A stretch of 64,000 nt of DNA from Escherichia coli (GTDB taxonomy: Bacteria > Pseudomonadota > Gammaproteobacteria > Enterobacterales > Enterobacteriaceae): assembly GCF_965641715.1 (NCBI RefSeq), contig NZ_OZ282453.1; one strand, written 5' to 3'. Below are positions 8,497-18,624 of this stretch, one piece after another (the first letter of the stretch is position 1; each line of letters starts with the position of its first letter). Under the pieces are notes generated by a model. The model was given only the letters and a program-made list of their open reading frames with translations, did no database searches and was not told the DNA's origin. The translations under genes and the position numbers were made by a program.

Positions 8497-9300
8497 ATGG
8501 AAAACAGTTTTAAAGCGGCGCTGAAAGCAGGCCGCCCGCAGATCGGATTATGGCTGGGGCTGAGTAGCAGTTACAGCGCAGAGTTACTGGCCGGAGCAGG
8601 ATTCGACTGGTTGTTGATCGACGGTGAACACGCGCCGAACAACGTGCAAACCGTGCTCACCCAGCTACAGGCGATTGCGCCCTATCCCAGCCAACCGGTA
8701 GTACGTCCGTCGTGGAACGATCCAGTGCAAATCAAACAACTGCTGGACGTCGGTACACAAACCTTACTGGTGCCGATGGTACAAAACGCTGACGAAGCCC
8801 GTGAAGCGGTATGCGCCACCCGTTATCCCCCCGCCGGTATTCGCGGTGTGGGCAGTGCGCTGGCTCGCGCCTCGCGCTGGAATCGTATTCCTGATTACCT
8901 GCAAAAAGCCAACGATCAAATGTGCGTGCTGGTGCAGATCGAAACGCGTGAGGCAATGAAGAACTTACCGCAGATTCTGGACGTGGAAGGAGTCGACGGC
9001 GTGTTTATCGGCCCGGCGGATCTGAGCGCCGATATGGGTTATGCCGGTAATCCACAGCACCCGGAAGTACAGGTCGCCATTGAGCAGGCGATCGTGCAGA
9101 TCCGCGAAGCGGGCAAAGCGCCGGGGATTCTGATCGCCAATGAGCAACTGGCAAAACGCTATCTGGAACTGGGCGCGCTGTTTGTCGCCGTCGGCGTTGA
9201 CACCACCCTGCTCGCCCGCGCCGCTGAAGCGCTGGCAGCACGGTTTGGTAATAGTTCTTCTATTTCGATGGCGAAGCAAAACAACAACTCTGTCTACTAA
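8497..9300 (+). CDS. hpaI: 2,4-dihydroxyhept-2-ene-1,7-dioate aldolase
   Basis: HpcH/HpaI aldolase family; true start MENSFKAAL... with AAGGAG SD; the ORF-track start at 8356 is an overlapping upstream extension. Confidence 0.85.
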
Positions 9301-9321
9301 ACGTACGATGTGGAGCGCATC

Positions 9322-10677
9322 ATGACGACCTCTACCCTGCAATATAAAGATAATAAAACTGTTGAAATTGAACATCGTGTCATTAATAAATTATTTCGTC
9401 GCCTAATCATTTTTCTTTTTATTCTGTTTGTTTTTTCGTTTCTTGATCGCATCAATATAGGATTTGCCGGACTGACAATGGGCAAGGATCTTGGCCTGAC
9501 GTCCACAATGTTTGGCCTCGCCGCGACACTCTTTTATGTCACGTACGTCATGTGCGGGATCCCCAGTAATATGATGTTAGCGAAAATTGGCGCTCGTCGA
9601 TGGATCGCTGGGATCATGGTGGTCTGGGGAATTGCTTCCACCTGCACAATGTTTGCAACAAGCCCCGAAACACTCTATCTACTGCGTATGCTGGTTGGTA
9701 TTGCTGAGGCGGGTTTTTTACCTGGTATTTTGGTTTATCTGACCTGGTGGTTCCCGGCATATCATCGGGCCAGAGCCAATGCCTTATTTATGATAGCGAT
9801 GCCAGTCACTATGATGCTGGGATCGATCCTTTCAGGCTACATTCTGGCCTTGGATGGACTGTGGAATCTAAAAGGCTGGCAATGGCTCTTTTTGCTGGAA
9901 GGTCTGCCATCGGTCATTCTTGGTGTCGTCACCTGGTTTTATCTCAACGACACACCAGACCAGGCGACCTGGCTTGATGAAAACGAAAAACAGGCTTTAA
10001 AAACGATGATTCTCCGTGAACAAGAGAGTGCATTTGCCCATGCATCTGTTCCACGCTCAACCTTACGTGAAGTCCTGACCCCAGCCATCATGCTATATAC
10101 ACTTGCTTATTTTTGCCTGACCAATACTCTGAGTGCGATTAATATCTGGACGCCGCAAATCCTACAGAGTTTCAATACTGGCAGTAGCAACATCATGATT
10201 GGTTTGCTGGCGGCCATCCCCCAATTCTGCACAATTTTTGGCATGATCTGGTGGAGTCGTCGTTCCGACCGTCTTAAAGAACGCAAAAAGCATACGATTC
10301 TTCCCTACCTGTTTGCCGCTGCCGGATGGTTACTCGCTTCTGCGACAGATCACAGCCTCATTCAACTGAGCGGCATCATTATGGCCTCAATGGGATCATT
10401 TACCGCGATGGCTATCTTTTGGACAACACCGGATCAAGTTATAAGCTTGCAATCGCGTGCCGTTGCGATGGCTGTCATCAATGCTGTCGGCAATGTAGGT
10501 TCAGCAGTCAGTCCATTACTTATCGGTATTTTGAAAGATGCAACCGGCAGTTTTAGCTCAGGTTTGTGGTTTGTAGCAGGATTGCTGGTACTGGGCGCGT
10601 TAGTCATGACCCGAATCCCTATGGGGAGTCGGGAACACTCTCTTTCATCTGAACTTATCGCACCAAAACCGCAATAA
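9322..10677 (+). CDS. hpaX: 4-hydroxyphenylacetate permease (MFS)
   Basis: MFS transporter ORF; ATG 9322 has a GGAG SD (track start 9310 is GTG inside the SD); lower GC than flanking hpa genes. Confidence 0.85.
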   Translation: MTTSTLQYKDNKTVEIEHRVINKLFRRLIIFLFILFVFSFLDRINIGFAGLTMGKDLGLTSTMFGLAATLFYVTYVMCGIPSNMMLAKIGARRWIAGIMVVWGIASTCTMFATSPETLYLLRMLVGIAEAGFLPGILVYLTWWFPAYHRARANALFMIAMPVTMMLGSILSGYILALDGLWNLKGWQWLFLLEGLPSVILGVVTWFYLNDTPDQATWLDENEKQALKTMILREQESAFAHASVPRSTLREVLTPAIMLYTLAYFCLTNTLSAINIWTPQILQSFNTGSSNIMIGLLAAIPQFCTIFGMIWWSRRSDRLKERKKHTILPYLFAAAGWLLASATDHSLIQLSGIIMASMGSFTAMAIFWTTPDQVISLQSRAVAMAVINAVGNVGSAVSPLLIGILKDATGSFSSGLWFVAGLLVLGALVMTRIPMGSREHSLSSELIAPKPQ

Positions 10678-10683
10678 GGAGTC

Positions 10684-11577
10684 ATGATGTCCAGTGAAGC
10701 TATCTTTGAACATGGTTATGAAAATATTGATTTGGTCCGGGAATATGATGCCCGCTACGCTGGTGAAGATGTGCATTATGAAACATTTGCCCGGTTAGCG
10801 AATTTCTTTGGACGCGATATGCGCCCTCACTGGCACGATAGATATTTTCAACTCCATTATCTGGTCACTGGACGCATTACTTTACAACTGGATGAGCACT
10901 TCTATTCTGTGCGCGCACCGCTTTTTGTACTAACACCACCATCGGTGCCACATACTTTCTTTACTGATCCTGATAGCGATGGGCATGTTCTGACCGTACG
11001 TCAGGAGTTAATTTGGCCCCTGGTAGAAAAGCTCTGGCCTGGTAGTGGAGATGCCGCAATGCTACAAGGTATCTGTCTGTCACTGGAGGGAATGGAACAT
11101 ACACTGGCGGCATTAAATCATTATTGGCCGATAATATCCCGGGAGTTTCAACAAAATAAGCCAGGACGGGAAATTCTATTGCAATCACTGGCGCAAAGTA
11201 TTTTTACAATCCTACTGCGTGAAGCACCACCAAATGATATTTCAACATGCAGCGTGCGCGGCGAGATGTGTTTATTCCAGAAGTTTAATCGGCTGATTGA
11301 CGAAAATTATCGCCAACATTTAATGGTCCCTGAATATGCAACAATGCTCGGTATGAGTGAATCACGGCTTACCGAGCTGTGCCGACGTTTTGCCAATCAA
11401 TCGCCGAAGAGATTGATTTTCGAACGAGTGAGCCGGGAAGCCAGACGGCTTCTGCTCTATAGCGAGCAAAGCATCAACCAGATAGCCCTTGATCTTGGCT
11501 ACAAAGATCCCGCCTATTTCGCCCGTTTTTTCAACCGAATGATGGGTTGCTCACCAACACAATTCCGTGGTCGCTGA
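10684..11577 (+). CDS. hpaA: AraC/XylS-family activator of hpaBC
   Basis: 297-aa ORF with C-terminal AraC-type HTH. Confidence 0.85.
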   Translation: MMSSEAIFEHGYENIDLVREYDARYAGEDVHYETFARLANFFGRDMRPHWHDRYFQLHYLVTGRITLQLDEHFYSVRAPLFVLTPPSVPHTFFTDPDSDGHVLTVRQELIWPLVEKLWPGSGDAAMLQGICLSLEGMEHTLAALNHYWPIISREFQQNKPGREILLQSLAQSIFTILLREAPPNDISTCSVRGEMCLFQKFNRLIDENYRQHLMVPEYATMLGMSESRLTELCRRFANQSPKRLIFERVSREARRLLLYSEQSINQIALDLGYKDPAYFARFFNRMMGCSPTQFRGR

Positions 11578-11603
11578 CCATTTATCAACCTGAGAGACTC
11601 GAC

Positions 11604-12542
11604 ATGAAAATATCTTTACGCTCACTATTTGTGGCGTGCCTGATTGCGCCAGTGGCATTCACCTACGCCTCCGAACCGCAAGAAATGAAAATTGTACTAC
11701 TTGGAACGAAAGGTGGCCCTTCTTTATTAAAAGCTGACCGTTTACCGATGGCAACGGCACTTATTATTGGCAATAAAACCTGGTTAATTGATGCTGGTTA
11801 CGGGGCCAGCTTACAACTGGTAAAAAATAATATTCCACTGCGCCAGATTGATAATATTTTACTCACCCATTTACACAGTGATCATATTCTGGACTATCCA
11901 TCAGTCTTAATGAATGCATGGGCTAGCGGTCTGCAGGACAAAACTATTCATGTGTTCGGTCCGCCAGGCACCCGAGCCATGACCGCTGCCAGTTGGCAGG
12001 TCTTCGATCGGGACATCACACTGCGTATGGAAGAAGAAGGAAAACCCGATCCTCGCAAACTCGTTACAGCTCAAGATGTTGGTGAAGGCGTAGTTTATAA
12101 AGATGATACCGTGACCGTGACTGCATTAAAGGTCCCTCATTCTCCTTTCCCTGACGGTGAGGCTTTTGCTTATCGCTTCGACACACAAGGCAAGCGAATT
12201 GTCTTCTCAGGAGATACCTCGTACTTTCCCCCACTGGCAACTTTCTCAGAAGGCGCTGATATACTTGTGCATGAGGCCGTACATGAGCCCTCCGTCGCTA
12301 AGCTGGCAGACAGTATTGGCAATGGTAAAACACTGGCAAAAGCCATTGCTTCTCACCATACGACTATTGAGGATGTAGGCAAAATTGCCAATGAAGCAAA
12401 AGTGAAAAAACTCATCCTTAGCCACCTGGTACCAATCACCGTTCCGGATGAAACATGGAAGCAAGAAGCACAGAAAAACTATTCAGGCCCTATCGTCGTT
12501 GGTCATGAAAATATGACGATTACCATTCCATTCGCCCCATAA
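11604..12542 (+). CDS. Secreted MBL-fold metallo-hydrolase (function unknown)
   Basis: Signal peptide MKISLRSLFVACLIAPVAFTYA; HxHxDH motif (LTHLHSDHI) plus downstream His residues; AT-rich codon usage; sits between hpaA and hpaB. Confidence 0.75.
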   Translation: MKISLRSLFVACLIAPVAFTYASEPQEMKIVLLGTKGGPSLLKADRLPMATALIIGNKTWLIDAGYGASLQLVKNNIPLRQIDNILLTHLHSDHILDYPSVLMNAWASGLQDKTIHVFGPPGTRAMTAASWQVFDRDITLRMEEEGKPDPRKLVTAQDVGEGVVYKDDTVTVTALKVPHSPFPDGEAFAYRFDTQGKRIVFSGDTSYFPPLATFSEGADILVHEAVHEPSVAKLADSIGNGKTLAKAIASHHTTIEDVGKIANEAKVKKLILSHLVPITVPDETWKQEAQKNYSGPIVVGHENMTITIPFAP

Positions 12543-12768
12543 AAAATTCCGTCCCCGTTAGCCCTTGTTAGCGGGGAATATTATGATTTGCCTTACTGTA
12601 AGTTGATCACGATCGCAGTTTACTATTTAACTCCACCTTGCTGGCGAAAAGTACCAACGTTCGCCTGAAACGTCTCTTCCCGACAACCGCGTTCAACGCT
12701 TCAATTAAATAACAAAAACAACACACAAAATTAACAATCGTATTCCGATTAATACTGTAGAGGTCGAC

Positions 12769-14331
12769 ATGAAACCAGAAGATTTCCGCGCCAGTACCCA
12801 ACGTCCGTTCACCGGGGAAGAGTATCTGAAAAGCCTGCAGGATGGTCGCGAGATCTATATCTATGGCGAGCGAGTGAAAGACGTCACCACTCATCCGGCA
12901 TTTCGTAATGCGGCAGCGTCTGTTGCCCAACTGTACGACGCGCTGCACAAACCGGAGATGCAGGACTCTCTGTGTTGGAACACCGACACCGGCAGCGGCG
13001 GCTATACCCATAAATTCTTCCGCGTGGCGAAAAGTGCCGACGACCTGCGCCAGCAACGCGACGCCATCGCTGAGTGGTCACGCCTGAGCTATGGCTGGAT
13101 GGGCCGTACCCCAGACTACAAAGCCGCTTTCGGTTGCGCACTGGGCGCGAATCCGGGCTTTTACGGTCAGTTCGAGCAGAACGCCCGTAACTGGTATACC
13201 CGTATTCAGGAAACTGGCCTCTACTTTAACCACGCGATTGTTAACCCACCGATCGATCGTCATTTGCCGACCGATAAAGTGAAAGACGTTTACATCAAGC
13301 TGGAAAAAGAGACTGACGCCGGGATTATCGTCAGCGGTGCGAAAGTGGTTGCCACCAACTCGGCGCTGACTCACTACAACATGATTGGCTTCGGCTCGGC
13401 ACAAGTGATGGGCGAAAACCCGGACTTCGCACTGATGTTCGTTGCGCCAATGGATGCCGATGGCGTCAAATTAATCTCCCGCGCCTCTTATGAGATGGTC
13501 GCGGGTGCTACCGGCTCGCCATACGACTACCCGCTCTCCAGCCGCTTCGATGAGAACGATGCGATTCTGGTGATGGATAACGTGCTGATCCCATGGGAAA
13601 ACGTGCTGATCTACCGCGATTTTGATCGCTGCCGTCGCTGGACGATGGAAGGCGGTTTTGCCCGTATGTATCCGCTGCAAGCCTGTGTGCGCCTGGCAGT
13701 GAAACTCGACTTCATCACGGCACTGCTGAAAAAATCACTCGAATGTACCGGCACCCTGGAGTTCCGTGGTGTGCAGGCCGATCTCGGTGAAGTGGTAGCG
13801 TGGCGCAACACCTTCTGGGCATTGAGTGACTCGATGTGTTCAGAAGCGACGCCGTGGGTCAACGGGGCTTATTTACCGGATCATGCCGCACTGCAAACCT
13901 ATCGCGTACTGGCACCAATGGCCTACGCGAAGATCAAAAACATTATCGAACGCAACGTTACCAGTGGCCTGATCTACCTCCCTTCCAGTGCCCGTGACCT
14001 GAACAATCCGCAGATCGACCAGTATCTGGCGAAGTATGTGCGCGGTTCGAATGGTATGGATCACGTCCAGCGCATCAAGATCCTCAAACTGATGTGGGAC
14101 GCCATTGGCAGCGAATTTGGTGGTCGTCACGAGCTGTATGAAATCAACTACTCCGGTAGCCAGGATGAGATTCGCTTGCAATGTCTGCGCCAGGCACAAA
14201 GCTCCGGCAATATGGACAAGATGATGGCGATGGTTGATCGCTGCCTGTCGGAATACGACCAGAACGGCTGGACTGTGCCGCACCTGCACAACAACGACGA
14301 TATCAACATGCTGGATAAGCTGCTGAAATAA
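12769..14331 (+). CDS. hpaB: 4-hydroxyphenylacetate 3-monooxygenase, oxygenase component
   Basis: 520-aa ORF. Confidence 0.9.
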   Translation: MKPEDFRASTQRPFTGEEYLKSLQDGREIYIYGERVKDVTTHPAFRNAAASVAQLYDALHKPEMQDSLCWNTDTGSGGYTHKFFRVAKSADDLRQQRDAIAEWSRLSYGWMGRTPDYKAAFGCALGANPGFYGQFEQNARNWYTRIQETGLYFNHAIVNPPIDRHLPTDKVKDVYIKLEKETDAGIIVSGAKVVATNSALTHYNMIGFGSAQVMGENPDFALMFVAPMDADGVKLISRASYEMVAGATGSPYDYPLSSRFDENDAILVMDNVLIPWENVLIYRDFDRCRRWTMEGGFARMYPLQACVRLAVKLDFITALLKKSLECTGTLEFRGVQADLGEVVAWRNTFWALSDSMCSEATPWVNGAYLPDHAALQTYRVLAPMAYAKIKNIIERNVTSGLIYLPSSARDLNNPQIDQYLAKYVRGSNGMDHVQRIKILKLMWDAIGSEFGGRHELYEINYSGSQDEIRLQCLRQAQSSGNMDKMMAMVDRCLSEYDQNGWTVPHLHNNDDINMLDKLLK

Positions 14332-14348
14332 CGCAGCAGGAGGTTAAG

Positions 14349-14861
14349 ATGCAATTAGATGAACAACGCCTGCGCTTTCGTGACGCGATGGCCAGCCTGT
14401 CGGCAGCGGTAAATATTATCACCACCGAGGGCGACGCCGGACAATGCGGGATTACGGCAACGGCCGTCTGCTCGGTAACGGATACACCACCGTCGCTGAT
14501 GGTGTGCATTAACGCCAACAGTGCGATGAACCCGGTTTTTCAGGGCAACGGCAAGTTGTGCGTCAACGTCCTCAACCATGAGCAGGAGCTGATGGCACGC
14601 CACTTCGCGGGCATGACGGGCATGGCGATGGAAGAGCGTTTTAGCCTCTCGTGCTGGCAAAAAGGTCCGCTGGCGCAGCCGGTGCTAAAAGGTTCGCTGG
14701 CCAGTCTTGAAGGTGAGATCCGCGATGTGCAGGCAATTGGCACACATCTGGTGTATCTGGTGGAGATTAAAAACATCATCCTCAGTGCAGAAGGTCACGG
14801 ACTTATCTACTTTAAACGCCGTTTCCATCCGGTGATGCTGGAAATGGAAGCTGCGATTTAA
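14349..14861 (+). CDS. hpaC: 4-hydroxyphenylacetate 3-monooxygenase, flavin reductase component
   Basis: 170-aa flavin reductase-like ORF directly downstream of hpaB. Confidence 0.9.
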   Translation: MQLDEQRLRFRDAMASLSAAVNIITTEGDAGQCGITATAVCSVTDTPPSLMVCINANSAMNPVFQGNGKLCVNVLNHEQELMARHFAGMTGMAMEERFSLSCWQKGPLAQPVLKGSLASLEGEIRDVQAIGTHLVYLVEIKNIILSAEGHGLIYFKRRFHPVMLEMEAAI

Positions 14862-14867
14862 GCTCCA

Positions 14868-14901
14868 GCCCCTTCACGCATTCGTCGAAGGGGCATTTTT
14901 A
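14868..14901 (+). terminator. Rho-independent terminator after hpaC
   Basis: GCCCCTTC-loop-GAAGGGGC followed by ATTTTTATT. Confidence 0.75.
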
Positions 14902-14902
14902 T

Positions 14903-14918
14903 TGTGATCTCAATCACA
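14903..14918. promoter_or_regulatory. Consensus CRP site upstream of btsT
   Basis: TGTGA-tctcaa-TCACA, exact match to TGTGA-N6-TCACA, directly abutting the hpaC terminator. Confidence 0.7.
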
Positions 14919-14946
14919 TATCCACCCGATGAATAATTCTTGCCCA

Positions 14947-14995
14947 ACCGCTCACCGCCATTCCTGACCGCTTACATCCCTAAAATAACCACTCA
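14947..14995 (+). promoter_or_regulatory. Three direct repeats of the BtsR (YehT) motif ACC(G/A)CT(C/T)A
   Basis: ACCGCTCA, ACCGCTTA, ACCACTCA with 12- and 13-bp spacers; motif recalled from yjiY promoter literature. Confidence 0.6.
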
Positions 14996-15253
14996 GTTAT
15001 TTACCTTACTTTACGCGCGCGTATCTCTGGCAACATCACTGCAGGATAGCGGTCAATTTACCTCCTCAAACGCAACGCAAACCTAGAACGGCTTCGGCCT
15101 ATGATTAACAAATTACTCTATGGATTTTGGTTTGCAGGAAGGCAGCAAGTGAGTGAATCCCCGGGAGCTTACAACAGTAAGTGTCAGAGGTGAACGAACG
15201 CAGCTGCCGCACCTGTAAGCCAAAAGACGACGAGTAAAATGCCAGGTTTTACT

Positions 15254-17404
15254 ATGGATACGAAAAAACTATTCAAGCACATACCCTGGGTGATTCTCGG
15301 AATCATCGGTGCATTCTGCCTCGCGGTAGTTGCATTACGTCGGGGGGAGCACGTCAGCGCCCTGTGGATCGTGGTCGCCTCTGTGTCGGTGTATCTGGTG
15401 GCGTATCGCTACTACAGTCTGTACATCGCCCAGAAGGTGATGAAACTCGACCCCACACGCGCGACGCCTGCGGTTATTAACAACGACGGTCTGAACTACG
15501 TTCCGACCAACCGTTACGTGTTGTTTGGTCACCACTTCGCCGCTATCGCCGGTGCTGGTCCGCTGGTTGGTCCGGTGCTCGCCGCGCAGATGGGCTACCT
15601 GCCTGGCACGCTGTGGCTGCTGGCGGGGGTAGTGCTGGCCGGTGCGGTACAGGACTTTATGGTGCTGTTTATCTCCTCTCGCCGTAACGGCGCATCTCTC
15701 GGTGAGATGATCAAAGAAGAGATGGGGCCAGTACCGGGGACTATCGCGCTGTTTGGCTGTTTTTTAATCATGATCATCATCCTCGCCGTTCTGGCGCTGA
15801 TTGTGGTTAAAGCCCTGGCCGAAAGTCCGTGGGGTGTCTTCACCGTTTGCTCAACCGTACCAATTGCGCTGTTTATGGGTATCTACATGCGCTTTATCCG
15901 TCCGGGGCGTGTGGGTGAAGTCTCTGTCATTGGTATCGTGCTGCTGGTTGCCTCTATCTACTTCGGTGGCGTGATTGCTCACGATCCGTACTGGGGTCCG
16001 GCACTGACCTTTAAAGACACCACCATTACCTTCGCGCTGATTGGCTATGCGTTTGTTTCCGCACTGCTGCCGGTGTGGCTGATCCTCGCACCGCGCGATT
16101 ATCTGGCAACCTTCCTGAAAATCGGCGTTATCGTCGGCCTGGCGCTGGGTATCGTGGTGCTGAACCCGGAACTGAAAATGCCTGCGATGACCCAGTACAT
16201 TGACGGTACTGGCCCGCTGTGGAAAGGCGCTCTGTTCCCGTTCCTGTTCATCACCATCGCCTGTGGTGCGGTATCTGGCTTCCACGCGCTGATCTCTTCC
16301 GGTACGACGCCGAAACTGCTGGCTAACGAAACCGACGCGCGTTTCATTGGCTACGGCGCAATGCTGATGGAGTCCTTCGTGGCGATTATGGCGCTGGTTG
16401 CTGCGTCCATCATCGAACCGGGTCTTTACTTCGCGATGAATACCCCGCCTGCGGGCCTTGGCATCACCATGCCTAACCTGCATGAAATGGGTGGCGAGAA
16501 CGCGCCGATCATCATGGCGCAGCTGAAAGACGTTACCGCACACGCGGCGGCGACCGTCAGCTCCTGGGGCTTCGTGATTTCGCCAGAGCAGATCCTGCAA
16601 ACCGCGAAAGACATTGGTGAGCCTTCTGTCCTGAACCGTGCAGGTGGTGCGCCGACGCTGGCGGTAGGTATCGCTCATGTGTTCCACAAAGTGCTGCCGA
16701 TGGCTGACATGGGCTTCTGGTATCACTTCGGTATTCTGTTCGAAGCCCTGTTCATCCTGACCGCGCTGGATGCGGGTACCCGTTCTGGCCGCTTTATGCT
16801 GCAAGACCTGCTGGGTAACTTCATCCCGTTCCTGAAAAAAACCGACTCTCTGGTTGCCGGTATCATCGGTACTGCGGGCTGTGTGGGTCTGTGGGGCTAC
16901 CTGCTGTATCAGGGCGTGGTCGATCCGCTGGGCGGCGTTAAGAGCCTGTGGCCGCTGTTCGGTATCTCCAACCAGATGCTGGCAGCCGTAGCGCTGGTAC
17001 TGGGCACCGTTGTGCTGATTAAGATGAAGCGCACCCAATACATCTGGGTAACTGTTGTTCCGGCTGTATGGCTGCTTATCTGCACCACCTGGGCGCTGGG
17101 TCTGAAACTGTTCAGTACCAACCCGCAGATGGAAGGCTTCTTCTACATGGCAAGCCAGTACAAAGAGAAGATTGCTAACGGTACTGACCTGACGGCGCAG
17201 CAGATTGCCAACATGAACCACATCGTTGTGAACAACTACACCAACGCAGGCCTGAGTATTCTGTTCCTGATTGTGGTGTACAGCATCATCTTCTACGGTT
17301 TCAAAACCTGGCTTGCGGTGCGTAACAGCGACAAACGTACTGACAAAGAAACACCGTACGTTCCAATCCCGGAAGGCGGCGTGAAGATCTCTTCGCACCA
17401 CTAA
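15254..17404 (+). CDS. btsT: Pyruvate/H+ symporter, CstA family
   Basis: ORF 15239..17404; likely start MDTKKLFKHIPW (716 aa); polytopic CstA-type transporter; synteny with yjiX-yjiA. Confidence 0.9.
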   Translation: MDTKKLFKHIPWVILGIIGAFCLAVVALRRGEHVSALWIVVASVSVYLVAYRYYSLYIAQKVMKLDPTRATPAVINNDGLNYVPTNRYVLFGHHFAAIAGAGPLVGPVLAAQMGYLPGTLWLLAGVVLAGAVQDFMVLFISSRRNGASLGEMIKEEMGPVPGTIALFGCFLIMIIILAVLALIVVKALAESPWGVFTVCSTVPIALFMGIYMRFIRPGRVGEVSVIGIVLLVASIYFGGVIAHDPYWGPALTFKDTTITFALIGYAFVSALLPVWLILAPRDYLATFLKIGVIVGLALGIVVLNPELKMPAMTQYIDGTGPLWKGALFPFLFITIACGAVSGFHALISSGTTPKLLANETDARFIGYGAMLMESFVAIMALVAASIIEPGLYFAMNTPPAGLGITMPNLHEMGGENAPIIMAQLKDVTAHAAATVSSWGFVISPEQILQTAKDIGEPSVLNRAGGAPTLAVGIAHVFHKVLPMADMGFWYHFGILFEALFILTALDAGTRSGRFMLQDLLGNFIPFLKKTDSLVAGIIGTAGCVGLWGYLLYQGVVDPLGGVKSLWPLFGISNQMLAAVALVLGTVVLIKMKRTQYIWVTVVPAVWLLICTTWALGLKLFSTNPQMEGFFYMASQYKEKIANGTDLTAQQIANMNHIVVNNYTNAGLSILFLIVVYSIIFYGFKTWLAVRNSDKRTDKETPYVPIPEGGVKISSHH

Positions 17405-17412
17405 CCGTGTTT

Positions 17413-17440
17413 AGCCCCGCTTCGGCGGGGCTTTGTTCTT
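17413..17440 (+). terminator. Hairpin plus T-run between btsT and yjiX
   Basis: AGCCCCGC-ttcg-GCGGGGCT followed by TTGTTCTT. Confidence 0.7.
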
Positions 17441-17453
17441 ATCAGAGTGAACT

Positions 17454-17657
17454 ATGTTTGGTAACTTAGGACAGGCAAAAAAATATCTCGGCCAGGCGGC
17501 GAAGATGTTGATTGGCATTCCAGACTACGACAACTACGTCGAGCATATGAAGACCAACCATCCCGACAAGCCGTACATGAGCTATGAAGAATTCTTCCGC
17601 GAACGCCAGAACGCGCGCTACGGCGGCGATGGTAAAGGCGGTATGCGCTGTTGTTAA
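17454..17657 (+). CDS. yjiX: YbdD/YjiX-family small protein (DUF466)
   Basis: 67-aa ORF directly downstream of the CstA-family transporter, the conserved pairing. Confidence 0.85.
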
Positions 17658-17667
17658 TGGAGAGAGC

Positions 17668-18624
17668 ATGAACCCGATTGCAGTTACCCTACTCACCGGT
17701 TTTTTAGGCGCGGGAAAAACCACCCTGCTGCGCCATATTCTTAACGAACAACACGGCTACAAGATTGCCGTGATTGAAAACGAATTCGGCGAAGTCTCCG
17801 TTGATGATCAACTGATTGGCGACCGCGCCACGCAGATCAAAACGCTGACCAACGGCTGCATCTGCTGTTCGCGCTCCAACGAGCTGGAGAACGCGCTACT
17901 CGACCTGCTGGATAATCTCGACAAGGGCAATATTCAGTTCGATCGTCTGGTCATTGAATGCACCGGCATGGCCGATCCTGGCCCGATTATTCAGACCTTT
18001 TTCTCCCATGAGATTTTATGCCAGCGCTACCTGCTGGACGGCGTGATTGCGCTGGTGGATGCGGTACATGCCGATGAGCAGATGAACCAGTTCACCATCG
18101 CCCAGTCCCAGGTTGGCTACGCCGACCGTATTCTGCTGACTAAAACCGACGTCGCAGGCGAAGCAGAAATACTGCGTGAACGTCTGGCACGCATCAACGC
18201 CCGTGCACCGGTCTACACCGTCACCCACGGCGACATCGACCTGGGCCTGCTGTTCAACACTAACGGTTTTATGCTGGAAGAAAACGTCGTCAGCACCAAA
18301 CCGCGTTTCCACTTTATCGCGGATAAACAAAACGATATTTCGTCGATTGTGGTGGAACTGGATTACCCGGTAGATATCAGCGAAGTTTCCCGCGTGATGG
18401 AAAACCTGCTGCTGGAATCGGCGGATAAACTGCTGCGTTACAAAGGGATGCTGTGGATTGACGGCGAACCTAATCGCCTGCTGTTCCAGGGCGTCCAGCG
18501 CCTCTACAGCGCCGACTGGGACCGCCCATGGGGCGATGAAAAACCGCATAGCACGATGGTGTTTATCGGGATTCAGTTGCCGGAGGAAGAGATTCGGGCG
18601 GCGTTTGCGGGGTTGAGGAAGTAA
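17668..18624 (+). CDS. yjiA: CobW/COG0523-family P-loop GTPase (metal chaperone-like)
   Basis: Start MNPIAVTLLTGFLGAGKTTL (Walker A), CICCS metal-binding motif; 318 aa. Confidence 0.9.
   Translation: MNPIAVTLLTGFLGAGKTTLLRHILNEQHGYKIAVIENEFGEVSVDDQLIGDRATQIKTLTNGCICCSRSNELENALLDLLDNLDKGNIQFDRLVIECTGMADPGPIIQTFFSHEILCQRYLLDGVIALVDAVHADEQMNQFTIAQSQVGYADRILLTKTDVAGEAEILRERLARINARAPVYTVTHGDIDLGLLFNTNGFMLEENVVSTKPRFHFIADKQNDISSIVVELDYPVDISEVSRVMENLLLESADKLLRYKGMLWIDGEPNRLLFQGVQRLYSADWDRPWGDEKPHSTMVFIGIQLPEEEIRAAFAGLRK

What the first reader, a model, noticed from the sequence alone, without database searches (positions are those of the whole stretch)
11604..12542. Secreted MBL-fold hydrolase gene embedded between hpaA and hpaBC
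A 312-aa ORF with a clear signal peptide and HxHxDH metallo-beta-lactamase-fold motif lies between the hpaA activator gene and its target operon hpaBC. The 11-gene hpa cluster as I remember it (hpaR, hpaGEDFHI, hpaX, hpaA, hpaBC) has no such member. It may be a passenger gene, or a periplasmic hydrolase acting on an aromatic ester or lactone that feeds the pathway.
Basis: partly seen in the sequence, partly recalled or inferred. Interest (0 to 1): 0.5.

Follow-up and report, generated by a model that had tools for sequence, protein, structure and literature searches.

The report
Exported metallo-hydrolase in variant hpa cluster
A rare E. coli version of the 4-hydroxyphenylacetate degradation cluster carries an extra, exported zinc-type hydrolase gene of unknown substrate whose relatives sit inside aromatic-acid degradation operons in many other bacteria, so it is probably an uncharacterised helper enzyme of these pathways, not a stray passenger.

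Summary
Window 11604-12542 (+) encodes an intact 312-aa protein with a Sec-type leader, an HLHSDH motif and a confident MBL fold, between hpaA and hpaBC.

In it, hpaX and hpaA are also replaced by alleles only 71% and 58% identical to the canonical ones, and GC3 is 0.41-0.48 against 0.66-0.69 in the flanks. Only 48 of 5,426 complete E. coli genomes carry it, all intact. RefSeq calls it just "MBL fold metallo-hydrolase".

It is very unlikely to be a passenger. Homologues follow hpaA in Salmonella, and follow hpaI in Pseudomonas and Alcanivorax. Others sit beside tyramine oxidase (Acinetobacter), beside another aromatic cluster (Providencia), or, without a leader, inside hmgA-MBL-fah operons in rhizobia.

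The closest characterised relative is the MBL-type arylsulfatase 8GYG (SulfAtlas S4; TM 0.81-0.83, 26% identity). The protein lies outside that clade and is not an RNase Z.

Best reading: a periplasmic binuclear-metal ester hydrolase that unmasks conjugated, most plausibly sulfated, hydroxyphenyl acids for HpaX/HpaBC. The link to the pathway is well supported. The chemistry is inferred.

The parts
9250..12700 (+). Xenologous cassette (hpaI 3' tail, hpaX', hpaA', the MBL gene, and the hpaBC upstream activator region) that replaces the canonical E. coli hpaX-hpaA segment
   Evidence: blastn against canonical strain 2014C-3307 gives 97.9% identity up to 9249 and 98.2% from 12646, with 66-69% or no match in between. 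Base-level junctions are 9250 on the left and 12697-12708 on the right. GC is 0.43-0.50 inside and 0.52-0.60 outside. GC3 is 0.41-0.48 inside and 0.66-0.69 in the flanks.
9322..10677 (+). hpaX' (4-HPA MFS permease, divergent allele)
   Evidence: PGAP calls it hpaX in A30. It is 71% aa identical to both canonical E. coli and Salmonella HpaX, whereas those two are 87.6% identical to each other. It starts only 22 nt after hpaI, against 175 nt in the canonical cluster.
10687..11577 (+). hpaA' (AraC-family activator of hpaBC, divergent allele)
   Evidence: TIGR02297 HpaA scores 493 bits against a cutoff of 275. It is 58% identical to canonical HpaA and 60% to Salmonella HpaA. Its nearest named relatives are Pluralibacter gergoviae (80%), Entomohabitans (77%) and Mixta (75%).
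11592..11597 (+). Shine-Dalgarno-like GAGAGA, 6 nt before the ATG
   Evidence: Read directly from the sequence. No sigma-70-like promoter or terminator was found between hpaA' and the MBL gene on the + strand.
11604..11669 (+). Sec-type signal peptide (residues 1-22, predicted cleavage TYA|SE)
   Evidence: Composition read from the sequence. The region has low pLDDT and no secondary structure in the model. Equivalent leaders occur in the clade's homologues.
11670..12542 (+). Mature MBL-fold binuclear-metal hydrolase (residues 23-312) plus stop codon
   Evidence: Pfam Lactamase_B_2 at 5.6e-20. AF2 pLDDT 90.1, pTM 0.87. The best structural match is arylsulfatase 8GYG, TM 0.81-0.83. Family-invariant residues are H89, H91, H94, H179, D204, E224, H252 and H274; D93 is conserved in more than 90% of members.
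11868..11885 (+). HLHSDH metal-binding motif (H89-H94)
   Evidence: Read from the sequence and confirmed in the family alignment.
12552..12577 (+). Stem-loop directly after the stop codon (11-bp stem, 4-nt loop), a probable transcript end or stabiliser that separates the gene from hpaBC
   Evidence: RNA fold gives -22.8 kcal/mol against a shuffle mean of -14.3, z = -3.3. The simple terminator scan did not call it because the downstream T run is weak.
12603..12676 (+). hpaBC upstream activator region of the HpaA' lineage: box TTGATCACGATCGCAGTTTA (12603-12622) and two GAAA(A/C)GT-type repeats 21 bp apart (12644-12655 and 12665-12676)
   Evidence: Alignment with the hpaA-hpaB spacers of L097 (HpaA 83% identical), Mixta and canonical E. 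coli. This stretch resembles L097 and Mixta more than canonical E. coli, while the core promoter from about 12700 is nearly identical to canonical. The operator role is inferred.
12769..14861 (+). hpaB-hpaC (canonical E. coli alleles), the operon activated by HpaA
   Evidence: ORFs, PGAP annotation, 98.2% identity to canonical.

Best explanation
[quoted passage not shown] It entered a minority of E. coli lineages by homologous replacement, as part of a 3.45 kb cassette (hpaX'-hpaA'-MBL plus the hpaBC upstream region) from another enterobacterial lineage with lower GC content.

It is probably co-transcribed with hpaX' and hpaA', and a stem-loop ends or stabilises the transcript before the hpaBC promoter.

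The proposed mechanism runs as follows:
- Site 1 is formed by H89, H91 and H179. Site 2 is formed by D93, H94 and H274. D204 bridges the two metals.
- A metal-bridging hydroxide attacks the electrophilic centre of an ester-type conjugate on the phenolic oxygen of a hydroxyphenyl acid or amine. An aryl O-sulfate is most plausible, followed by an aryl phosphate (di)ester.
- E224 and H252, which correspond to the RNase Z 'HEAT' and 'HST' positions, assist.
- The freed 4-HPA, 3-HPA or 3,4-dihydroxyphenylacetate is taken up by HpaX', sensed by HpaA' and degraded by HpaBC and HpaGEDFHI.

Shown here: the ORF, the leader, the fold, the metal ligands, the cassette structure, the rarity and intactness in E. 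coli, and the conserved genomic link to aromatic catabolism. Inferred: export, co-transcription, substrate class, and the role of feeding the pathway.
For: **Fold and ligands.** Pfam Lactamase_B_2 matches at 5.6e-20. The AF2 model has pLDDT 90.1. Metal ligands are conserved across 31 homologues.

**Nearest characterised relative.** The MBL-type arylsulfatase 8GYG is the best match by sequence (1.5e-25, full length; 26% identity, E 7e-30). It is also the best match by structure (TM 0.81-0.83, ahead of PNGM-1, RNase Z and YhfI). Profile-profile comparison with the S4 family gives probability 100% and E 3.9e-59 over 308 columns, leader included.

**Not a passenger.**
- Homologues follow hpaA in Salmonella (77% identity) and in metagenomic locus L100 (76%).
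- Homologues follow hpaI in P. putida and in three Alcanivorax/Alloalcanivorax loci (53-58%).
- The Acinetobacter homologue lies in a cluster with an aldehyde dehydrogenase and a copper amine oxidase.
- The Providencia homologue sits next to a Rieske oxygenase and extradiol dioxygenase cluster.
- The Achromobacter homologue lies between TctC and HPPD, in a cluster that also holds an S1 sulfatase and an FMN dehydrogenase.
- Overall, 31 of 87 loci carry hpa-type, homogentisate-type or other aromatic genes. The Tat-exported clade of 33 loci has no recurrent neighbour, so the link is clade-specific.

**Selection.** Against Salmonella, pN is 0.14 for the MBL gene, 0.20 for hpaX and 0.27 for hpaA, with synonymous sites saturated. 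All 48 E. coli copies are full length, gap-free and at least 99.0% identical. 14 of 15 Salmonella cluster members read keep HLHSDH.

**Expression anatomy.** There is a 26-nt gap after hpaA', a Shine-Dalgarno-like run, and no promoter or terminator in between. A stable hairpin follows the stop codon. The hpaBC upstream region remains intact downstream.
Against: - No biochemical, expression or export data exist for this protein or any member of its clade. I found nothing in the searchable literature.
- Identity to the S4 prototypes is only 25.6-26.3% (30.4% to a Blastomonas member), and the protein falls outside the S4 clade in a rough NJ tree.
- By my reading of the hhalign columns, residues invariant in S4 (R106, Q108, N179, H262 in 8GYG numbering) are not conserved here. 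This family has its own invariants instead (K36, R141, E145, W285; Y66 nearly invariant).
- The catalytic residues are equally those of the RNase Z phosphodiesterases, so they cannot separate sulfate from phosphate esters.
- The characterised S4 enzyme sits in a polysaccharide and sulfatase neighbourhood, not an aromatic one.
- The relatives embedded in hmgA-MBL-fah operons and those next to class-III aminotransferases lack any leader. They should be cytoplasmic, which a periplasmic unmasking model does not explain.
- An S1 sulfatase lies near the homologue in only 3 of 87 loci, and no sulfur-metabolism genes recur.
- The genomes whose HpaA is closest to HpaA' (Pluralibacter, Mixta, L097) lack the gene, so it is dispensable for the pathway.
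Confidence: 0.42

Rival explanations
1. It is a periplasmic phosphodiesterase or phosphatase (like E. coli ZiPD/ElaC or YhfI) acting on aryl phosphate esters or other phosphodiesters. Its link to hpa genes would come through phosphorylated phenolics, or through a more general scavenging role.
For: RNase Z, ZiPD, YhfI, PhnP-like diphosphatase and Apyc1 are all strong structural neighbours. NCBIfam RNase Z models score 125-127 bits. The RNase Z 'HEAT' and 'HST' positions (E224, H252) are invariant. The catalytic residues do not discriminate phosphate from sulfate esters.
Against: All RNase Z, PhnP and cyclic-nucleotide PDE models score far below their curated cutoffs. In the alignment, B. subtilis RNase Z residues 151-200 have no counterpart in the query; from prior knowledge this is the tRNA-binding flexible arm. 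The best hit by both sequence and structure is the sulfatase. No phosphate-regulon or phosphonate genes recur nearby.
Confidence: 0.17
2. It is a lactonase or carboxyl-esterase acting on an aromatic ester or lactone. Candidate substrates are esters of hydroxyphenylacetate or hydroxyphenyl-lactate, homogentisate gamma-lactone, and 2-coumaranone-type lactones.
For: From general knowledge, MBL-fold lactonases exist (AiiA, UlaG). Neutral esters and lactones cross membranes, which would fit the presence of both exported and leaderless members. The tight hmgA-MBL-fah arrangement would suit a homogentisate-lactone hydrolase.
Against: No lactonase or carboxylesterase appears among the top 50 structural matches or among the sequence hits to solved structures. 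By its chemistry, 4-HPA and 3,4-dihydroxyphenylacetate cannot form an intramolecular lactone.
Confidence: 0.13
3. The family does something tied to the dihydroxyphenylacetate intermediates themselves (homoprotocatechuate, homogentisate), not to substrate unmasking. One example would be removing a toxic side-product or adduct formed when these auto-oxidising diphenols leak. This would unify the exported and cytoplasmic members.
For: The two best-represented contexts are the homoprotocatechuate and homogentisate pathways. The gene lies inside the ring-cleavage operons, after hpaI or between hmgA and fah, and not next to uptake genes. Leaderless and exported clades group together in the tree.
Against: No known MBL-fold enzyme has such a role. 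No specific substrate can be named. In E. coli, Salmonella and L100 the gene follows the regulator and permease genes instead. In Acinetobacter and Providencia it accompanies other entry routes.
Confidence: 0.15
4. It is a functionally unrelated passenger that hitch-hiked on the recombined hpaX'-hpaA' segment. It could be a decaying gene, or a beta-lactamase-like resistance gene.
For: The gene is absent from about 98% of hpa-positive E. coli and from the genomes whose HpaA is closest to HpaA', so it is dispensable. PNGM-1, an MBL with beta-lactamase activity, is a structural neighbour.
Against: The gene recurs with aromatic catabolic genes in several independent gene orders and families. It has the lowest non-synonymous divergence of the cassette genes. 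It is intact in all 48 E. coli carriers and in Salmonella, including subsp. arizonae. Identity to PNGM-1 is only 20-22%.
Confidence: 0.08

Closest known systems
SulfAtlas family S4 arylsulfohydrolases (AtsA of Pseudoalteromonas carrageenovora; PDB 8GYG from Paraglaciecola/Pseudoalteromonas atlantica T6c)
   Same: Both are exported proteins of about 310-330 aa with a single MBL domain and no extra domains. All metal ligands and the E and H 'HEAT/HST' positions align. 8GYG is the best hit by sequence and by structure.
   Different: Identity to the prototypes is 25.6-26.3%. The protein belongs to a separate clade. S4-invariant residues near the active site are not conserved, by my reading. The genomic context differs: polysaccharide and S1-sulfatase genes for 8GYG, aromatic-acid catabolism here. 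S4 itself has been characterised only on artificial aryl sulfates (PMC5066984).
RNase Z / ElaC (ZiPD) zinc phosphodiesterases
   Same: They belong to the same branch of the MBL superfamily and share the HxHxDH, H, D, H, HEAT and HST positions. TM scores are 0.71-0.73 normalised to the query.
   Different: This protein has a signal peptide. RNase Z residues 151-200 are unmatched in the alignment; from prior knowledge this is the flexible-arm exosite. All NCBIfam RNase Z equivalog models score far below cutoff, for example 127 bits against 252.
Classical hpa cluster of E. coli W/B/C (hpaR, hpaGEDFHI, hpaX, hpaA, hpaBC)
   Same: The chromosomal site is the same, between tsr and btsT. hpaR, hpaGEDFH, most of hpaI, and hpaBC are 98% identical.
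   Different: hpaX and hpaA are replaced by 71% and 58% identical alleles, the tail of hpaI is of the donor type, and there is an extra exported hydrolase gene. The hpaI-hpaX spacer shrinks from 175 to 22 nt.
Salmonella enterica hpa cluster with its terminal 'MBL fold metallo-hydrolase' (probably STM1109, 'putative periplasmic protein')
   Same: The gene order is hpaX-hpaA-MBL. The protein is 312 aa with a leader and is 77% identical.
   Different: In Salmonella the gene ends the cluster and is followed by a pmrD-like gene and cbpAM, not by hpaBC. Salmonella HpaX and HpaA are of the canonical type, 87.5% identical to E. coli W-type. The equation with STM1109 rests on my memory of LT2 gene order plus the label in PMC5797601, and I did not test it.

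Membership tests
Metallo-beta-lactamase (MBL) fold superfamily | HxHxDH motif plus downstream His, Asp and His metal ligands, on an alpha-beta/beta-alpha sandwich | tested here: met
   HLHSDH is at residues 89-94, and H179, D204 and H274 are invariant in the family. Pfam PF12706 scores 72 bits against a cutoff of 27. The AF2 model matches MBL-fold structures with probability 1.00.
SulfAtlas S4 (AtsA-type arylsulfohydrolase) | At least 30% sequence identity to AtsA (P28607), plus HxHxDH (criterion stated in PMC5066984) | tested here: inconclusive
Proxies give 25.6% (8GYG/P0241), 26.3% (a Pseudoalteromonas member, P0268), 29.7% (Sphingomonas) and 30.4% (Blastomonas). HxHxDH is present.
SulfAtlas S4 (AtsA-type arylsulfohydrolase) | Falls inside the S4 clade and shares its family-invariant residues | tested here: not met
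   None of the query's relatives appear among the top 120 homologues of 8GYG. The two groups form separate clades in a rough NJ tree. Profile identity is 23%. By my reading of the hhalign columns, S4-invariant R106, Q108, N179 and H262 align to non-conserved positions here.
SulfAtlas S4 (AtsA-type arylsulfohydrolase) | Hydrolysis of aryl sulfate esters | not testable with these tools
   This needs an enzyme assay.
RNase Z / ElaC | Flexible-arm tRNA exosite, cytoplasmic location, and a score above the equivalog cutoffs | tested here: not met
   B. subtilis RNase Z residues 151-200 have no counterpart in the query; their identity as the flexible arm is from prior knowledge. A signal peptide is present. 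Scores are 127 against 252, 125 against 293, and 124 against 363 bits.
Cyclic-nucleotide phosphodiesterase / anti-Pycsar Apyc1 | A score above the Pfam or NCBIfam cutoff | tested here: not met
   PF23023 scores 19 bits against a cutoff of 50. NF041851 scores 84 bits against 400.
hpa (homoprotocatechuate / 4-HPA) catabolic gene cluster, as an accessory member | Conserved physical linkage to hpa genes across distinct lineages and gene orders | tested here: met
   The gene follows hpaA in the E. coli variant, Salmonella and L100. It follows hpaI in P. putida and three Alcanivorax-group loci. It is adjacent to hpaI in L071 and L090.
hpa (homoprotocatechuate / 4-HPA) catabolic gene cluster, as an accessory member | Co-regulation with the pathway and a contribution to substrate use | not testable with these tools
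   Only anatomy is available: a 26-nt gap after hpaA', no promoter or terminator in between, and a hairpin after the stop codon.

The most novel reading that the evidence does not exclude
The protein belongs to a previously unrecognised enzyme family, sister to the S4 sulfatases, that performs a missing accessory step shared by the homoprotocatechuate and homogentisate pathways. The most attractive version is that it is a new kind of aryl-sulfate (or aryl-phosphate) esterase. This would let Salmonella and a minority of E. coli strains feed on host- or plant-conjugated phenolic acids and amines (4-HPA sulfate, DOPAC sulfate, tyrosine or tyramine O-sulfate). Cytoplasmic paralogues would do the same after uptake in rhizobia and roseobacters.
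Probability: 0.25. Interest if true: 0.7.

Novelty: new variant of a known kind. Interest (0 to 1): 0.45.

Why it matters
The 4-hydroxyphenylacetate and homogentisate pathways are textbook routes that are regarded as enzymatically complete. A paper from 2025 still describes "completing" the 4-HPA pathway without this gene (PMC12718150).

A conserved, uncharacterised metallo-hydrolase is embedded in both pathways across several proteobacterial lineages. That points either to an unrecognised class of natural substrates (conjugated phenolics) or to an unrecognised maintenance step.

In the gut, sulfated phenolic acids and amines are abundant host and dietary metabolites. An exported esterase wired to hpa would give Salmonella and rare E. 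coli lineages a private carbon source, and it would change the pool of circulating phenolic conjugates.

The locus is also a clean natural example of a regulator, its operator region, a transporter and an accessory enzyme being exchanged together by homologous recombination inside an otherwise conserved operon.

The hypothesis can be tested directly with a handful of substrates and one deletion mutant.

Tried and rejected
- **RNase Z / RNase BN** (the label many sources give to relatives): rejected because of the leader, the unmatched arm region and sub-threshold scores.
- **Anti-Pycsar or cyclic-nucleotide PDE, PhnP, GntH:** all far below their cutoffs.
- **True S4 membership:** not supported.
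- **Lipoprotein:** Cys12 is conserved in enteric members, and P0002 even reads LAAC. However, the Cys sits only 11 residues in, in the middle of the hydrophobic core, and is absent from the Pseudomonas and Alcanivorax members. A type-I signal is more likely. No predictor was available.
- **Possible inactivation in Salmonella (D93N in P0007):** a singleton, since 14 of 14 other members keep Asp.
- **Donor search via HpaA':** the nearest named genomes (Pluralibacter, Mixta) and the 83% metagenomic relative lack the MBL gene. No donor above 85% identity was found for the MBL protein, so the donor remains unidentified.
- **Literature searches** for any link between MBL genes and hpa or hmg clusters, or between sulfatases and these pathways, found nothing relevant. 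A search for '8GYG' found no paper.
- **Neighbour analysis of the Tat-exported clade** gave no recurrent partner and no hint about chemistry.
- **dN/dS** could not be computed because synonymous sites are saturated. I report only pN and pS.
Full report
Window 11604-12542 (+) is an uninterrupted 312-codon ORF.
- Its ATG lies 26 nt after the hpaA stop codon (11575-11577) and 6 nt after a GAGAGA run.
- The N-terminus, MKISLRSLFVACLIAPVAFTYA|SE, has the charge, hydrophobic-core and small-residue pattern of a type-I Sec signal. It is the only poorly structured part of the AlphaFold model (pLDDT 53-62 for residues 1-20, 90.1 overall).
- HLHSDH occupies residues 89-94 (nt 11868-11885). Pfam assigns Lactamase_B_2 at 5.6e-20.
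- The upstream gene is a bona fide HpaA (TIGR02297, 493 bits against a cutoff of 275). hpaB and hpaC follow.

**2. The setting is a swapped cassette, not a simple insertion.** The window is an E. coli chromosome (opgB-lgo-tsr-hpa-btsT) and is 99.9% identical to strain A30. Comparison with a canonical hpa locus (strain 2014C-3307) shows the following.
- Identity is 97.9% up to position 9249 and 98.2% from 12646. In between, hpaX matches at 69%, hpaA at 66-67%, and the MBL gene has no match.
- Base-level junctions are at 9250, inside the last codons of hpaI, and at 12697-12708, inside the hpaBC promoter region.
- Within the cassette GC3 is 0.41-0.48, against 0.66-0.69 in the flanks.
- HpaX' is 71% identical to both canonical E. 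coli and Salmonella HpaX. HpaA' is 58% identical to canonical HpaA and 60% to the Salmonella protein. The canonical and Salmonella proteins are 87.5% identical to each other. The donor therefore lies outside the E. coli-Salmonella pair.
- HpaA' is closest to Pluralibacter (80%), Entomohabitans (77%) and Mixta (75%). The variant HpaI tail is of the same type as in Pluralibacter.
- The hpaBC upstream region also follows the HpaA' lineage up to about 12697: a TTGATCNCGATCGCAGTTTA box and two GAAAAGT-type repeats 21 bp apart. The core promoter is canonical. Regulator and presumed operator thus moved together.
- Relative to L097 and Mixta, where the same upstream region follows hpaA directly, the MBL gene plus a strong stem-loop (12552-12577; -22.8 kcal/mol, z = -3.3) forms a discrete module of about 1 kb.
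- No promoter-like or terminator-like site separates hpaA' from the gene, and hpaX' starts only 22 nt after hpaI. Transcription together with hpaX'A', and possibly with the whole meta operon, is likely but untested.

**3. Distribution.**
- The gene is present in 48 of 5,426 complete E. coli genomes. It is always chromosomal, full length and gap-free, at 99.0-100% identity. No other E. coli genome has any detectable homologue.
- About 2,000 further genomes carry the canonical cluster.
- RefSeq annotates the gene only as "MBL fold metallo-hydrolase" (WP_001672356.1).
- In Salmonella enterica a 77%-identical orthologue is widespread. Its 90%-identity cluster has 1,719 sequences and includes subsp. 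arizonae. There the gene ends the cluster hpaGEDFHI-X-A-MBL.
- One Salmonella representative has D93N, but 14 of 14 other members read keep the Asp.

**4. What the protein is.**
- By sequence, the best solved relative is 8GYG, an MBL-fold arylsulfatase from P. atlantica T6c (1.5e-25, residues 30-299; 26% identity).
- By structure it is again first (TM 0.81-0.83), ahead of PNGM-1, RNase Z, YhfI and ZiPD.
- Across 31 homologues the invariant residues are H89, H91, H94, H179, D204, E224, H252 and H274; D93 is conserved in more than 90%. These are the binuclear-metal ligands plus the RNase Z "HEAT" and "HST" positions.
- It is not an RNase Z. It has a leader, RNase Z residues 151-200 are unmatched in the alignment, and every RNase Z, PhnP, GntH and cyclic-nucleotide PDE model scores far below its cutoff.
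- It is related to SulfAtlas family S4 but lies outside it. Profile-profile probability is 100% (E 3.9e-59) at only 23% identity. Pairwise identity to S4 members is 25.6-30.4%, straddling the 30% criterion of PMC5066984. The two groups form separate clades. By my reading of the alignment, S4-invariant residues (R106, Q108, N179, H262) are not conserved here. The family has its own invariants instead: K36, R141, E145 and W285, with Y66 nearly invariant.
- The characterised S4 enzyme sits among S1 sulfatases and a GH16 gene, which is a different biological setting.

**5. Genomic association.** This is the strongest functional evidence. Contexts found in other genomes are listed below.

| Organism or locus | Identity to query | Context |
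|---|---|---|
| P. putida | 53% | directly after hpaI |
| Alcanivorax / Alloalcanivorax (3 loci) | 57-58% | directly after hpaI |
| Metagenomic locus L100 | 76% | hpaX-hpaA-MBL |
| Acinetobacter | 47% | with GMC oxidoreductase, aldehyde dehydrogenase and copper amine oxidase (a tyramine-to-4-HPA route) |
| Providencia | 50% | next to Rieske/VanA-type oxygenase, SDR, IclR, extradiol dioxygenase, reductase, MFS |
| Achromobacter | 40% | between TctC and HPPD, in a cluster that also holds an S1 sulfatase and an FMN dehydrogenase |

- Across 87 loci, 31 carry tyrosine-derived aromatic catabolic genes within 10 kb.
- Of these, 10 are hpa-type and 20 are homogentisate-type. In 17 loci hmgA lies 0-30 bp upstream on the same strand. 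In 13 loci a fumarylacetoacetase-family gene lies downstream, within 110 bp in 11 of them.
- Eight loci have a class-III aminotransferase; in seven it lies 0-31 bp away.
- A rough NJ tree separates three groups: a Tat-exported clade of 33 loci with no recurrent neighbour, the exported gammaproteobacterial clade that contains the E. coli protein, and a leaderless alphaproteobacterial clade that groups with it.

**6. The complication.** The hmgA-linked and aminotransferase-linked members have only 6-12 residues before the first conserved strand. They should therefore be cytoplasmic. A model in which the family always pre-processes substrates in the periplasm cannot be general. What is common to both localisations is the link to (di)hydroxyphenyl-acid catabolism.

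**7. Selection.** Against Salmonella, synonymous sites are saturated (pS about 0.79). Non-synonymous divergence is lowest for the MBL gene (pN 0.14), compared with hpaX (0.20) and hpaA (0.27). Together with the gene's intactness in all carriers, this argues for a maintained function.

**8. Most likely mechanism.** The protein is exported by Sec. In the periplasm its binuclear metal centre hydrolyses an ester-type conjugate that masks a phenolic compound. An aryl O-sulfate is the best guess because of the S4 relationship, and an aryl phosphate (di)ester is second. The released hydroxyphenylacetate is imported by HpaX', sensed by HpaA' and degraded.
- I put about 0.8 on a functional tie to the pathway.
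- I put about 0.42 on the full statement, including an ester-conjugate substrate.
- I put about 0.25-0.3 on sulfate specifically.

Rival readings are a phosphoesterase (0.17), a role tied to the diphenol intermediates that would unify exported and cytoplasmic members (0.15), a lactonase or carboxyl-esterase (0.13), and an unrelated passenger or beta-lactamase (0.08).

**9. Prior knowledge.** The gene is annotated only generically. STM1109 is listed as a "putative periplasmic protein" detected by proteomics in S. Typhimurium (PMC5797601). Equating it with this orthologue rests on my memory of LT2 gene order and on the neighbouring cbpAM-scs-agp genes. It is a lead, not a test. I found no paper that links an MBL-fold gene to hpa or hmg clusters. 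The searchable library is limited to open-access papers.

**10. Verdict.** The feature is real and correctly described. It is an intact accessory gene of an uncharacterised MBL-fold family, carried on a recombined hpaX'-hpaA'-MBL cassette in about 0.9% of complete E. coli genomes. Conserved synteny ties it to aromatic-acid catabolism. Its chemistry is unknown. It is of moderate interest and easy to test.

Noticed in passing
window 9250-9300 (3' end of hpaI): The left recombination junction lies inside hpaI. The last ~17 codons therefore encode a donor-type tail (...[20 protein letters not shown]) that resembles the Pluralibacter and L096 tails. PGAP flags hpaI as 'frameshifted' in both A30 and canonical strain 2014C-3307, but in the window 8497-9300 reads through.
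   Followed up: partly
window 12603-12676: A conserved TTGATCNCGATCGCAGTTTA box and two GAAA(A/C)GT-type repeats 21 bp apart lie upstream of hpaB. They are shared with the hpaA-hpaB spacers of L097 and Mixta, and canonical E. coli also has the repeats. This is a candidate HpaA operator. The right-hand crossover lies between it and the core promoter.
   Followed up: partly
P0004 (Salmonella-type protein, 419 aa, seen on 7 contigs): This protein is an in-frame fusion of the N-terminal ~108 residues of HpaE to the MBL protein. It implies a deletion that removed the rest of hpaE through hpaA while keeping the MBL reading frame.
   Followed up: no
L010:1-7700: A Mu-like prophage (MuA, MuB, Gam, Kil) sits directly upstream of the Salmonella-type MBL gene in one assembly, with the hpa genes missing on that side.
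   Followed up: no
L003:7216-8154 (P0007): The cluster representative from one Salmonella assembly has HLHSNH, with D93N at a metal ligand. All 14 other members read keep HLHSDH, so this is an isolated and probably inactivating variant.
   Followed up: yes
L028, L030-L038, L053, L059 (Mesorhizobium, Ensifer/Sinorhizobium and related rhizobial loci): Leaderless homologues (36-40% identity) are embedded between homogentisate 1,2-dioxygenase and a fumarylacetoacetase-family gene. A DinB-family gene follows in most of these loci, and HPPD lies divergently nearby. This extra gene in the homogentisate operon appears not to have been described.
   Followed up: partly
L052, L056, L076, L083, L084, L089, L090 (mostly Rhodobacteraceae): Leaderless homologues lie immediately next to a class-III aminotransferase. 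IclR, aldehyde dehydrogenase and tripartite tricarboxylate transporter (Tct-type) genes recur nearby in many of these loci. In L090 (Amylibacter ulvae), hpaI, hpaH and hpaF homologues are adjacent, with weaker hpaE-, hpaG- and hpaR-like hits nearby.
   Followed up: partly
L093 (Pluralibacter gergoviae) 10000-18500: In this genome the hpa cluster ends at hpaA. It is followed by a region with repeated SymE-toxin-like small ORFs and a Tox-ART-HYD1 gene. hpaBC is not adjacent.
   Followed up: no
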